A stretch of DNA of 39,736 bases from assembly GCA_049597355.1 (NCBI GenBank), contig JBMYMN010000001.1, positions 1 to 39,736 of the forward strand. The letters are read 5' to 3'. The DNA comes from Luteolibacter sp. Lineage in GTDB: Bacteria > Verrucomicrobiota > Verrucomicrobiia > Verrucomicrobiales > Akkermansiaceae. Under the pieces are notes generated by a model. That model had not been told where the DNA came from, searched no databases, and saw nothing but the letters and a program-made list of their open reading frames with translations. This document shows, piece after piece, positions 57 through 2,309 of the stretch (positions are counted from its first letter, which is position 1; every line of letters starts with the position of its first letter). A program made the translations under genes and the position numbers.

Positions 57-97
57 AGTGTGTTTCAGTGTACTTCAATACCACTGAATGCCCCACT
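57..97. promoter_or_regulatory. Possible MraZ operator boxes upstream of mraZ
   Basis: AGTGT at 57 and 67 (10-bp period), followed by inverted CCACT at 81 and 93, just before the mraZ start. MraZ is known to bind short GTG(G)-type repeats about 10 bp apart upstream of its own operon. The match is short. Confidence 0.35.
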
Positions 98-104
98 TGT
101 GCCC

Positions 105-557
105 GTGAGTGAATTTGAACAACGTTACAAAGGCTTCAAGCCGGCGAAAATGGACTCGAAGTATCGGGTTTCCATTCAGCCTGCTTGGCGCCCCGAGCCG
201 GGCCGCTCCCTTTTTCTGTTGTTCTCCAAAGAATACGACATGCCTTTGGTTAAGGCGCTCAGTGAAGCAGCCTACGCCGAGCGGGTTGAGATCATCAACA
301 ACAGCGACAAGACACCCGCCGAGAAGGGCAAGATGCTCGGCAAGCTTGCCATGCTCTGTCGCGAAGTCGCCCTTAACGATCAGGGTAAGCTCTTGGTCCC
401 CAAGGACCTCAGCGAGAAGGCTGCCATCGACGCTGACTCCGAAATTATGCTCGCCGGCCGCGGCACCCATTTTCAGGTCTGGAGCAAAGCCAATTTCGAT
501 AAGGTCCTGGAGATCGAAACCGGTCAAGAGGACGACGATGAGCTTGGGATCTTTTAG
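105..557 (+). CDS. mraZ: Division/cell wall cluster transcriptional repressor MraZ
   Basis: Two SpoVT/AbrB-like repeats (KMDSKYRVSI; LNDQGKLLVP) and GRGTHFQVWS. First gene of the dcw cluster. Start probably GTG at 99 or 105, not 9. Confidence 0.92.
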   Translation: MSEFEQRYKGFKPAKMDSKYRVSIQPAWRPEPGRSLFLLFSKEYDMPLVKALSEAAYAERVEIINNSDKTPAEKGKMLGKLAMLCREVALNDQGKLLVPKDLSEKAAIDADSEIMLAGRGTHFQVWSKANFDKVLEIETGQEDDDELGIF

Positions 558-716
558 ATCCAAAAGCCTGCAAACGTTTTCACCAATCAACCAATTCACC
601 AGTTACGCAAGCGCAATCCAAACTCCGGTTCCCGCCGATTCACCCACTCATTATGGCTTCCTACCATCTACCCAACTCTTTCTCCTTCAGTTTGTGATCT
701 TGTGTCACCCTCCAAC

Positions 717-997
717 ACTGGCGCCTGAGCCGGCTCACTCTTGCGTGAGTCCATACGCAGCCGTGCAGGCGCCAGTCTTGGTCTCTTCTCCACCACTCTC
801 CCAGTGGTGCCAAGCGCAAGGGACGGCGCAGGGCACCACGACATATCGGGATGTCTGTGCCACTTCTGGTTGGTTGCTGGCGCAGCATCCCGGGGATTTT
901 CTGGCTGGGCGTTTGAAGCTTCTAGGGACAGAGCTTCATGCGTCGATTGCTACGATGGTCCGTGCGGCTTCTGGCTGGTTGTCCGCGCGGCCATCGT
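717..997 (+). ncRNA. Candidate structured cis-regulatory RNA in the mraZ-rsmH leader (tandem two-hairpin module, 105-nt period)
   Basis: Stems at 717-727/766-776, 804-811/832-839, 847-862/878-892, 908-920/932-944 and 952-967/983-997. Loop motifs AGGGAC (819, 924) and CTTCTGGYTGGTTGY (863, 968) each recur exactly 105 nt apart. The copies differ by compensatory changes. G-U wobbles indicate the + strand. Confidence 0.7.
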
Positions 998-1011
998 CAT
1001 CTCTCCAAACG

Positions 1012-1968
1012 ATGAAGCCCGACCCCACGGCGAAAGCCGGCGGGGTCTCTTCGTATCATGCCCCTGTGTTTCCTGCAGAGGTGATCGAGTGGATGCAGCC
1101 TGCTGAAGGTAGTTTTATCATCGATGGAACTCTTGGTGGCGGCGGTCACAGTGAGTTGTTTCTGAAGGCTGGAGCGAGAGTGCTGGGTGTTGATCGCGAT
1201 CCGGAAGCGCTGGCCCATGCGAGCCAACGTCTGGCGGCCTTCGGCGATCGCTTTTGCTCATGGGAGGGTAACTTCTCCGATGTGGCCGACGACCCGAAGA
1301 TTGGTATGGCCGATGGGCTGTTGCTCGATCTCGGCGTATCATCGCGCCAGCTCGACTGTGCCGAGCGTGGCTTCTCCTTCATGCGTGACGGCCCCCTAGA
1401 CATGCGCATGGGCCCCAGTTGCCCGCACGATGCTGCCGAAGTAGTCAATGAGTGGCCTGAACACGAATTGATTCGCATTTTGCGCGAATACGGTGAGGAG
1501 AAGAAGGCTCACCGCATCGCTGCGGCCATCACCGAGCGCCGTGCCGACAAGCGATTTGCCACAACCCTCGATCTGGCCTCTTGCATTGAGAAGGCTGTCG
1601 GTAGGCAAGGTCGCATCCATCCAGCCACCCGCGCTTTCCAGGCCATTCGCATGGCGGTGAATGAAGAGCTTGAGAGTTTGCAGCGCACACTTGAGGCAGT
1701 TCCCGGTCTCCTGAAGCCGGGTGGTCGTCTGCTGATCATTACGTTCCACAGCCTCGAAGACCGCATGGTTAAGCACTTTCTTAAGCGGCGCTCTACCGAG
1801 TGGATAGACAGTCCTGCGTGGCCCCAGCCACGCCGCAATCCCGAACATCACTTTAAGCTGCTGGCCCGCAGGGCGATCGCTCCGACCGAAGCAGAGGTGA
1901 ATGCGAATCCGCGCGCTCGCAGTGCGAAGCTCCGCGTTGCCAGTCTACTTGAGCACCAAACATCATGA
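1012..1968 (+). CDS. rsmH: 16S rRNA m4C1402 methyltransferase RsmH (MraW)
   Basis: HAPV, IDGTLGGGGHS, DLGVSSRQLD, RGFSF, HPATRAFQAIRMAVNEEL, ITFHSLEDRMVK, NPRARSAKLR. Start taken as ATG 1012, but the frame stays open upstream (in-frame ATG at 955). Confidence 0.97.
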   Translation: MKPDPTAKAGGVSSYHAPVFPAEVIEWMQPAEGSFIIDGTLGGGGHSELFLKAGARVLGVDRDPEALAHASQRLAAFGDRFCSWEGNFSDVADDPKIGMADGLLLDLGVSSRQLDCAERGFSFMRDGPLDMRMGPSCPHDAAEVVNEWPEHELIRILREYGEEKKAHRIAAAITERRADKRFATTLDLASCIEKAVGRQGRIHPATRAFQAIRMAVNEELESLQRTLEAVPGLLKPGGRLLIITFHSLEDRMVKHFLKRRSTEWIDSPAWPQPRRNPEHHFKLLARRAIAPTEAEVNANPRARSAKLRVASLLEHQTS

Positions 1969-2309
1969 ACCGTCGCAAGCAACAGCCCATCAGGATTTCT
2001 GCATCTGCTCTGATTGCGGTCATTCTTGCGACTTCTATCGCTGCAGCAGGCGGAATCCTGTATGTCTATTGTAAGAATCGTCAAATCCAGATCAGTCGCG
2101 AGATTGATGAGATTTCGCGTACCATTGAACACTGTAAGCTTGAGATCCGCTCGACTAGCATGCGGACGGATCAGCTACTCAACCGCTATCTGATCCGCAA
2201 GCGTCTCCAAGAACAGGGATCCAGGCTGAGGCCGATCAATGTCGCGGTCGTAGAAGAGATTCAATTGAAGACTGAAAAACCCGATAGCGTTGCTTCCGCA
2301 GTTCCCTGA
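1965..2309 (+). CDS. ftsL: Cell division protein FtsL-like
   Basis: Basic N-terminus, one TM helix, then a coiled-coil-like segment. Canonical position between rsmH and ftsI with overlapping start/stop codons. Confidence 0.7.
   Translation: MNRRKQQPIRISASALIAVILATSIAAAGGILYVYCKNRQIQISREIDEISRTIEHCKLEIRSTSMRTDQLLNRYLIRKRLQEQGSRLRPINVAVVEEIQLKTEKPDSVASAVP

What the first reader, a model, noticed from the sequence alone, without database searches (positions are those of the whole stretch)
804..997. Tandem two-hairpin RNA module with internal covariation, directly upstream of rsmH in the dcw operon
Seen: two units sit exactly 105 nt apart (804-892 and 908/909-997). Hairpin A (804-839; 908-944) has unrelated stems but the same loop core AGGGAC (819 and 924). 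Hairpin B has identical architecture in both copies: 7-bp stem, bulged U, 8-bp stem, 15-nt loop. Copy 1 is CGGGATG-T-CTGTGCCA-[CTTCTGGTTGGTTGC]-TGGCGCAG-CATCCCG (847-892). Copy 2 is ACGATGG-T-CCGTGCGG-[CTTCTGGCTGGTTGT]-CCGCGCGG-CCATCGT (952-997). Eight of 15 pairs differ between copies and every change is compensatory. A U-G wobble is kept at the same position, which fixes the + strand. A third TTCTGGCTGG sits in the linker (899-908). Copy 2 ends 14 nt before the rsmH ATG and buries an in-frame ATG (955). Known: an 'mraW RNA motif' occupies the same position in Actinobacteria, but it is a single hairpin, and I do not recognise this architecture. Inference: a cis-regulatory RNA (tandem aptamer or repeated protein-binding site) gating rsmH-ftsL-ftsI-mur genes. 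GGA loops recall CsrA/RsmA sites, and loop UGG triplets could pair with tRNA CCA ends. Both ligand ideas are speculative.
Basis: partly seen in the sequence, partly recalled or inferred. Interest (0 to 1): 0.9.

Follow-up and report, generated by a model that had tools for sequence, protein, structure and literature searches.

The report
Phage-shared RNA hairpin array inside rsmH
The two hairpin pairs are real, but they lie inside an unbroken, likely translated front extension of the rRNA-methylase gene rsmH rather than in a leader; relatives stack one to eight copies there and unrelated phages carry single copies, so this is likely an undescribed RNA signal that ties transcription of the cell-division and cell-wall genes to ribosome traffic.

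Summary
Observation confirmed: two A+B hairpin units 105 nt apart, 8 of 15 B pairs compensatory, no Rfam family. The setting is not a 5' leader. In 111 non-redundant relatives (records titled Luteolibacter, Haloferula, Akkermansiaceae) the unit forms arrays of 1-8 copies inside the rsmH reading frame: 11 stops in that frame against 265 and 294 in the others, 303 of 309 spacings multiples of three, pN/pS 0.68 against 0.10 in the core with synonymous sites frozen. One locus per genome, so not REP-like. Nine distinct single copies sit in phage-like contigs, sense strand, just after stop codons in late operons; one phage's terminase has prophage homologues only in array-bearing genera. CsrA is absent (0 of 121). 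Best reading, inferred only: a host-factor-bound RNA that pauses or ends transcription when untranslated, making rsmH-ftsL-ftsI-mur read-through depend on ribosomes (0.35); put-like antiterminator and excised RNA are close rivals. The scan noted this array before on other genomes (e1-4151962 and others); I tested it independently here.

The parts
57..76 (+). two AGTGT(G/A) repeats at 10-nt period above mraZ; candidate MraZ operator, unrelated in sequence to the hairpin loops
   Evidence: sequence; AGTGTA/GTGTAC are the top non-A/T 6-mers above mraZ in relatives; operator role inferred
141..557 (+). mraZ (start uncertain; frame open from 9)
   Evidence: Pfam MraZ 27.9 bits; NCBIfam MraZ models below cut-off
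694..702 (+). likely start region of the extended rsmH: GTG-ATC-TTG; ATC 697-699 is the position that reads ATG in relatives (MLFTPP-like start)
   Evidence: A/C-rich, SD-like motif in 1 of 90 relatives; ATC seen in independent assemblies; use as start inferred
712..781 (+). hairpin H0 just below the start; also present in family genera that lack the array
   Evidence: (z -4.1); z below -2 in 41 of 84 loci
804..839 (+). hairpin A, copy 1 (loop core AGGGAC 819-824; the GCAAGGGACGGC variant typical of genus g21)
847..892 (+). hairpin B, copy 1 (15 bp, bulged U, 15-nt loop 863-877)
897..908 (+). U tract plus single-stranded copy of the B-loop motif (TTTTCTGGCTGG)
   Evidence: U at +5..+8 after B in 67-86% of 350 distinct B hairpins; this motif plus hairpin A is the whole unit in genera g21/g50
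908..944 (+). hairpin A, copy 2 (hexaloop AGGGAC 924-929)
952..997 (+). hairpin B, copy 2 (loop 968-982; buries in-frame ATG 955)
   Evidence: 90.6 bits with model R1
694..1968 (+). rsmH with a 120-codon N-terminal extension (694-1053) that carries H0 and the array; catalytic core from YHAPV at 1054
   Evidence: (TIGR00006 317.8 bits); residues 1-123 pLDDT 24-29
1965..2309 (+). ftsL-like gene overlapping the rsmH stop (ATGA); followed by overlapping ftsI, murE, murF, then mraY, murD, an unnamed ORF and ftsW to 11733
   Evidence: ATGA overlap in 79 of 98 array loci; ftsL named by position only

Best explanation
The A+B unit is a conserved two-hairpin RNA that sits in an open reading frame fused to RsmH and likely acts as a translation-gated transcription attenuator: a host factor likely binds its invariant loops, and the folded unit would pause or end transcription unless ribosomes running through the extension keep it open. 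Shown: the fold is conserved by covariation, the loops are conserved as nucleotides, the array keeps the rsmH frame through 52 different lengths while the peptide drifts, and phages use the same unit untranslated right after stop codons. Inferred: that the extension is translated from 694-702; that the unit marks transcript ends in phages (stop codon before it, U-rich tail or a new promoter motif after it); that in the host, slow or absent ribosomes let 1-8 units fold so that RNA polymerase, with Rho or Nus factors, stops above rsmH-ftsL-ftsI-murE-murF, whose overlapping stop/start codons pass the effect on; that copy number sets the strength. The bound factor is not identified.
For: Frame: stops 11 vs 265/294 in 111 loci, and all 11 lie in 4 of the 5 loci with a frame break (two of them with N gaps); 303 of 309 spacings multiples of 3; 0 vs 61/39 stops between the ATG and first unit in 90 loci; 52 extension lengths, 98-317 codons, in 84 loci. 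RNA, not peptide: pS 0.13 vs 0.39 and pN/pS 0.68 vs 0.10 in 8 disjoint pairs; loop A read in another frame in 54 of 407 in-frame units; 18 of 19 pairs with two-sided changes, score 0.451 vs 0.189 shuffled and at most 0.104 slid. Phages: 9 distinct copies outside mraZ/rsmH among 305 loci, all sense to flanking genes, 6 within 21-31 nt of a stop by script and 2 more by eye, next to terminase, portal, head or lysis genes in 7, a PHROG of unknown function in 1, nothing named in 1; 12 of 14 pairs covary among them. At least 5 U in the 8 nt after B in 5 of 9; a motif that precedes six genes of phage G418 follows the unit in 4 of 9. Unrelated phage types share it, and terminase homologues occur in 7 of 77 genomes of the two array genera and 0 of 203 others, which points to a host factor. 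Rho homologues are in 101 of 101 family genomes. rsmH-ftsL overlap in 79 of 98.
Against: No transcript end, pause, ligand or ribosome footprint was measured. The terminator scan finds no + strand site in 1-1100; in hosts the U tract is offset by about 4 nt and only 138 of 350 B hairpins have 5 U in the first 8 nt; window B2 has no U run and 4 of 9 phage copies lack one. Known intrinsic terminators need no conserved loops. Genera g21/g50 keep an array with no B hairpin at all. 6 of 7 prophage terminase loci lack the unit and the seventh has a decayed one, so phages can do without it. No candidate factor co-occurs with the array (RfaH-like paralogue and second Rho are family-wide). 104 of 111 arrays also hold internal in-frame ATGs, so the start is not fixed. 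Kin are not independent, so counts overstate the number of events.
Confidence: 0.35

Rival explanations
1. put-like antiterminator: the nascent two-hairpin RNA binds host RNA polymerase (or a Nus factor) and makes it resistant to pausing and Rho; phages use one copy for long late genes, hosts stack copies to carry transcription through the 11-kb dcw cluster, and the frame is kept only because the array arose below the rsmH start.
For: Two adjacent stem-loops shared by unrelated phages and needing a host partner, as for HK022 put (PMC9378689); always sense; in G418 it precedes an 18-kb gene; one strong copy per phage record in 4 of 4; U-rich stretch a few nt below B could be a pause site.
Against: HK022 put lies just downstream of promoters; here the unit follows stop codons and often precedes a promoter-like motif, and one copy follows a lysis gene with no long ORF after it in the 280 nt held. 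Conservation is in terminal loops, not at the junction of the stems. Ribosomes would strip a translated copy.
Confidence: 0.2
2. The unit is a nuclease-resistant RNA or protein-binding scaffold: it protects transcript ends or is cut out as a small RNA (decRNA-like) that binds a protein or other RNAs in trans.
For: Very stable stems with exposed invariant loops; position at mRNA segment boundaries in phages; E. coli excises structured RNAs from the same operon (PMC6156199 passages); one prophage has a 14-nt complement of the B loop over the next start codon.
Against: No enrichment of loop complements at starts in the genome (0 of 26 and 0 of 43) or at the own rsmH start (-9.4 vs -8.6 +/- 3.3 kcal/mol background, no covariation). 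Does not explain why copies stack only at this place.
Confidence: 0.2
3. Translational roadblock: a protein (RsmH itself, MraZ or another) clamps the loops and slows ribosomes in the extension, lowering RsmH and the translationally coupled FtsL-FtsI-MurE-MurF without any effect on transcription.
For: Array must be crossed by ribosomes; RsmH modifies the P site and changes decoding (PMC2831307 abstract), so feedback is plausible; tandem simple hairpins suggest oligomeric protein binding (PMC2864571 passage on pan RNAs).
Against: Phage copies are untranslated and have no rsmH or mraZ nearby; no mimicry of the C1402 region was found; RsmH acts on 30S subunits, not naked RNA.
Confidence: 0.12
4. 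A phage- or transposon-derived palindrome that landed in the disordered RsmH N-terminus and expands by unequal recombination, with no host function (RPE/BIME-like).
For: In-frame palindromes are known in Rickettsia (PMC10969869 passage); the same spot holds a weak Y1_Tnp-like domain in genera g19/g53; the extension is predicted unfolded; IS200-like ends in one relative share a 10-mer with loop A.
Against: Present in 15 of 15, 15 of 15 and 1 of 1 genomes of three genera with near-invariant loops and many compensatory changes; one locus per genome; ends of the own IS200-like element are different.
Confidence: 0.07
5. Tandem riboswitch or T-box-like tRNA sensor (loop A GAC as an Asp codon, UGGC pairing with the tRNA 3' end).
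For: GAC/GAU kept in 400 of 405 at the third position and UGGC/UGGU in the B loop.
Against: No Rfam match in window, 10 host loci or 9 phage loci; first U of UGG varies; no loop-loop covariation; presence in phage late operons fits no metabolite.
Confidence: 0.06

Closest known systems
mraW RNA motif (Rfam RF01746; Weinberg 2010, PMC2864571)
   Same: Structured RNA at the front of mraW/rsmH in the dcw cluster.
   Different: Actinomycetales only (table row); no Rfam match at E up to 10 or up to 1 in relatives; not reported as a variable, in-frame array or in phages in what I read.
HK022 put RNA (PMC9378689)
   Same: About 70-100 nt, two stem-loops, phage-borne, acts through a host machine in cis.
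   Different: put follows promoters and binds by the fork between its stems; this unit follows stop codons, conserves terminal loops, and is multiplied inside a host reading frame. Binding to polymerase untested.
Ribosome-coupled attenuators and intrinsic terminators (established knowledge)
   Same: GC-rich hairpin with U-rich tail whose folding would depend on a trailing ribosome; translated region whose peptide hardly matters.
   Different: No separate leader peptide or regulatory codon run (in-frame TGG not enriched); invariant loops; up to eight copies; fused to the first regulated gene.
decRNAs of the E. coli mraZ-rsmH-ftsL-ftsI-murE operon (PMC6156199)
   Same: Stable structured RNA inside coding sequence of the same operon.
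   Different: Those overlap functional protein domains and are single; here a dedicated repeat with covariation and phage copies. Excision untested.
Rickettsia palindromic elements, REP/BIME arrays (PMC10969869)
   Same: Palindromic repeats in frame within ORFs; alternating unit types in tandem.
   Different: Those are dispersed over many genes; this is one locus per genome with loop conservation and no cognate transposase.

Membership tests
mraW RNA motif RF01746 | Match to the Rfam covariance model | tested here: not met
mraW RNA motif RF01746 | Position at the 5' side of mraW/rsmH | tested here: met
   (but inside the extended frame)
REP / BIME / RPE | Many dispersed copies per genome | tested here: not met
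   2 copies in own genome; single clusters in the listed matches of 151 genomes (211 matches unlisted) and with model R1
REP / BIME / RPE | Cognate HUH transposase flanked by the same hairpins | tested here: not met
   10 Y1_Tnp loci from 5 genomes carry no unit by motif scan; own element has other ends; L207 no R1 match
REP / BIME / RPE | In-frame residence inside an ORF (RPE) | tested here: met
CsrA/RsmA binding sites | A csrA gene in the host | tested here: not met
   0 of 121 family genomes, control rang in 3 of 14
CsrA/RsmA binding sites | ANGGAN hexaloop (consensus recalled, from no call) | tested here: not met
   first loop base C in 384, A in 19 of 405; the window's two copies are among the A variants
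HK022 put RNA | Two adjacent stem-loops in the nascent transcript | tested here: met
HK022 put RNA | Placed downstream of the promoter it serves | tested here: inconclusive
   about 750 nt below the likely mraZ promoter in the host; after stop codons and before promoter-like motifs in phages; start sites not mapped
HK022 put RNA | Binds the beta-prime zinc-binding domain and suppresses termination | not testable with these tools
   needs in vitro transcription or structure
Intrinsic terminator / attenuator | GC-rich hairpin followed at once by a U tract | tested here: inconclusive
   5 of 9 phage copies, 138 of 350 host B hairpins; none called in the window
Intrinsic terminator / attenuator | Transcript 3' ends at the hairpin, relieved by translation | not testable with these tools
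   only contig-level RNA data
T-box riboswitch | Rfam T-box match and invariant UGGN bulge | tested here: not met
decRNA | Stable structure embedded in coding sequence | tested here: met
decRNA | Released by RNase cleavage as a stable species | not testable with these tools
   no raw RNA reads available
ANTAR dual-hairpin sites | ANTAR protein in the host | tested here: inconclusive
   0 of 5 genomes but the control was silent too
MraZ binding repeats | Short direct repeats at 10-nt period in the mraZ promoter | tested here: not met
   such repeats (GTGTA) lie above mraZ and differ from the loops (B. subtilis pattern from 10.1101/2022.02.09.479790 passages)

The most novel reading that the evidence does not exclude
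The unit is an RNA ligand of the host RNA polymerase or termination machinery, used by many unrelated Verrucomicrobia phages in their late operons and captured by the host, which multiplied it up to eightfold inside the rsmH reading frame so that ribosome traffic decides whether it folds: the first chromosomal, copy-number-tuned, translation-gated polymerase-binding RNA, setting division and cell-wall gene output by translation capacity.
Probability: 0.25. Interest if true: 0.95.

Novelty: categorically new. Interest (0 to 1): 0.8.

Why it matters
It is a structured RNA family that intergenic screens would miss because gene callers place it inside rsmH. It joins three unusual traits: selection on RNA shape and on reading frame but hardly on the peptide, copy number that varies from one to eight at the head of the division and cell-wall operon, and single copies in unrelated phages. 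If a host factor binds it, it gives a direct handle on how PVC bacteria, which mostly lack Shine-Dalgarno signals at this gene, couple division genes to translation, and on a host function that their phages exploit. Both are testable with cultured, harmless Luteolibacter or Haloferula strains.

Tried and rejected
Rfam: nothing near a gathering score in the window, 10 host loci, 9 phage loci except a phage tRNA. Genome-wide repeat: rejected. CsrA: 0 of 121. Kissing loops A-B: pairing can be drawn but variants do not covary. rRNA pairing or mimicry: loop A matches or complements 16S positions near 496-546 (10 nt identity, 8 nt complement in 2 of 3), but about 25 motif-by-rRNA comparisons were made in two orientations and the 8-nt complement is lost in G000 and G342 with no matching loop change; a wider 16S search found nothing because my pattern had a wrong gap length. 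B loop pairing with the rsmH start: no better than background or permuted; no enrichment at other starts. Trp-codon leader: in-frame TGG 54 vs 70 and 45 in non-array extensions. mraZ read-through: stop-to-ATG distance falls in all three frames. RfaH-like paralogue: 119 of 150 family genomes, including array-free genera. Second Rho: family-wide. ANTAR: silent control. INPHARED phages: 2 chance hits, E 4. Wider spread: no strong match outside the family in 150 order and 150 phylum genomes (only 25 candidates per genome were scored, so prophage copies can be missed); the listed pattern hits outside arrays in 401 genomes showed no such stems by eye. RNA runs: three RNA libraries hold small pieces (616-786; a relative's 928-1103; 1731-1988), too little to show expression or ends. 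Dropped before counts: of 11 distinct non-dcw units, L509 (fragment of a host array) and L308 (marginal fold); five frame-broken loci and the window were left out, and the five. Literature: no paper found (zero hits each); some searches gave only the background papers. No supplements were read; motif tables in supplements of large RNA-motif screens could list the element.

Full report
Observation. Rfam has no family for it. The unit occurs only here in the 2.54-Mb genome. Independent assemblies confirm the letters. The genes are mraZ, rsmH, an ftsL-like ORF, ftsI, murE, murF, mraY, murD and ftsW.

Relatives. rsmH loci of 29 same-genus genomes and a pattern scan of the species collection (120 loci listed of about 220, 108 with Verrucomicrobia titles, mostly Luteolibacter, Haloferula, Akkermansiaceae) show the same unit as tandem arrays: 1 to 8 copies in 96 complete spacers. 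In 405 distinct units loop A is C-U-[CGGGAC]-A-G and loop B is CUYCUGGCUGGUUGU, most positions above 94% conserved, while stems vary freely. On a plain MAFFT alignment of 75 units (75 of 86 that passed my filter) 18 of 19 named pairs change on both sides; covariation 0.451 against 0.189 shuffled and at most 0.104 slid (kinship inflates the first control). G-U exceeds A-C on the + strand. A covariance model finds arrays in 15 of 15, 15 of 15 and 1 of 1 genomes of genera g1, g20, g47, weak matches in 7 of 15 of g21, and none or only marginal ones in the other genera. Genera g21 and g50 carry a simpler array: the single-stranded UUUCNUGGCUGG motif followed by hairpin A, two or three times.

The array lies inside rsmH. 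In 111 non-redundant loci the array holds 11 stops in the rsmH frame against 265 and 294 in the others; five loci have a frame break, two of them with assembly gaps; 303 of 309 unit spacings are multiples of three; 91 of 96 complete spacers have an in-frame ATG above the first unit. Only 9 of 111 have an ATG between the array and the catalytic core, so the ATG at 1012 is a local accident. The extension takes 52 lengths from 98 to 317 codons in 84 loci. In the window the homologous ATG reads ATC (697) with GTG 694 and TTG 700 beside it. The peptide is barely selected: pN/pS 0.68 against 0.10 in the core, synonymous change one third of the core's, in 8 disjoint pairs; loop A is read in a second frame in 54 units; AlphaFold gives residues 1-123 pLDDT below 30 from a shallow alignment; no Pfam match. 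Gene callers already join the extension to RsmH (16 homologues of 285-525 aa). Shorter extensions, many with hairpin H0, are general in the family and order, so the array grew inside an older tolerant N-terminus; genera g19 and g53 hold a weak Y1_Tnp-like domain at the same spot. rsmH overlaps the next start as ATGA in 79 of 98 loci, and ftsL-ftsI-murE-murF overlap in the window. Translation of the extension is inferred from these patterns, not measured.

Phages. Two hits with non-Verrucomicrobia titles and several viral and metagenome contigs carry one unit with the same loops and unrelated stems. Among 305 loci, 9 distinct copies lie away from mraZ/rsmH. All are sense to their neighbours and intergenic, 8 within about 31 nt of a stop codon, in terminase, portal, head or lysis regions; 12 of 14 pairs covary in an alignment of these 9 with the window's 2. 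Four phage records searched whole have one strong copy each. In the complete record G418 the unit lies between terL and a motif that precedes six genes, ahead of a 6046-codon ORF. Homologues of that terminase are found as prophages in 3 of 42 g1 and 4 of 35 g20 genomes and in none of 203 others; one of those seven loci has a decayed unit after terL, six have none. Because podovirus-like and lambda-like gene sets share it, the partner is likely a host factor.

Mechanism. I commit to a translation-gated attenuator at 0.35. Phage copies sit where transcripts end (stop before; U-rich tail in 5 of 9, promoter-like motif after in 4 of 9 and a TTGAC-type hexamer by eye in 2 more). A host that puts such units inside a frame it never breaks would make read-through into the division genes depend on ribosomes; Rho homologues are present throughout. 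Against: offset or missing U tracts, arrays without B, no terminator call in the window, invariant loops that plain terminators do not need, and no co-distributed factor. A put-like antiterminator (0.2) and an excised or end-protecting RNA (0.2) fit the same comparative data with opposite or different outcomes; a protein-clamped ribosome roadblock (0.12), a neutral palindrome (0.07) and a riboswitch or T-box-like sensor (0.06) fit less well.

Known kinds. It fails the tests for the mraW motif, REP/RPE, CsrA sites, T-box and MraZ repeats, and resembles put, attenuators and decRNAs in part only. Papers: PMC2831307 abstract and section list; PMC2864571, PMC13245932, PMC6156199, PMC10969869 and bioRxiv 10.1101/2022.02.09.479790 passages; PMC9378689 abstract, introduction, start of results and passages; others as search listings only. 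Searches found no paper on it; supplements were not read. The CsrA, T-box and attenuator consensus features are recalled. Genus names for g-labels come from no call; Luteolibacter and Haloferula come from record titles.

Earlier notes. After my reading was formed, the scan's notes showed that the array, its place inside the frame and, in one note, phage copies were reported from other genomes; they are not independent support. They gave me the decRNA paper.

Verdict. Real, conserved, undescribed in the sources searched, function unshown. Interest 0.8.

Noticed in passing
L204:835-1500, L205:838-1506, L199:871-1503: In genera g19 and g53 RsmH carries a 210-220 aa N-terminal domain with a weak IS200-like HUH transposase match (PF01797, E 5e-4 to 0.012, below cut-off) at the place where others have the array.
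   Followed up: partly
G000:C151:1859-3088 and G000:C195:144-1148: Two Rho paralogues in 96 of 101 family genomes at E 1e-90; the own genome's second copy matched in two pieces.
   Followed up: partly
window 57-76: AGTGT(A/G) repeats at 10-nt period above mraZ across the family, a candidate MraZ operator that differs from the GTGG type.
   Followed up: partly
G418 (L601-L603), e.g. 1947, 9135, 16792, 27129, 39063, 41530: Motif CGCTGCGCCCGTT precedes six genes of a complete 59.6-kb temperate phage, a likely late promoter or activator site; also seen in prophages L608, L609. The phage has a 6046-codon ORF.
   Followed up: partly
L609:1370-1495 (- strand): A decayed unit after terL in a prophage is followed within 30 nt by a 14-nt exact complement of the g20-type B loop that covers the next start codon; single case.
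   Followed up: partly
G000:C94:5279-5797 (L547): RfaH/UpxY-like NusG paralogue beside a GbsR/CudC-like regulator and nucleotide-sugar genes; in 119 of 150 family genomes, not in g19.
   Followed up: yes
e.g. G023:C14:2179-2931, G030:C2:132955-133731: Many relatives hold a second rsmH-like gene of about 40% identity; the own genome does not.
   Followed up: no
L206:1381-2018 (G000:C81): IS200-like gene flanked by 46-nt inverted repeats, each made of two small hairpins; not spread in the genome.
   Followed up: partly
window 558-693; L002:557-700: The window and its closest relative have a spacer about 100 nt longer above the start than other relatives; the relative has three near copies of a 13-mer that the window has once.
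   Followed up: no
window 818-827; G000:C53:16149: The loop of A1 shares the 10-mer AAGGGACGGC with the 16S rRNA near position 496 and with IS200-like ends in L207; no covariation found.
   Followed up: yes
L207:1150-1290 and 2060-2160: Runs of 6-8-nt tandem repeats flank an IS200-like gene in G030.
   Followed up: no
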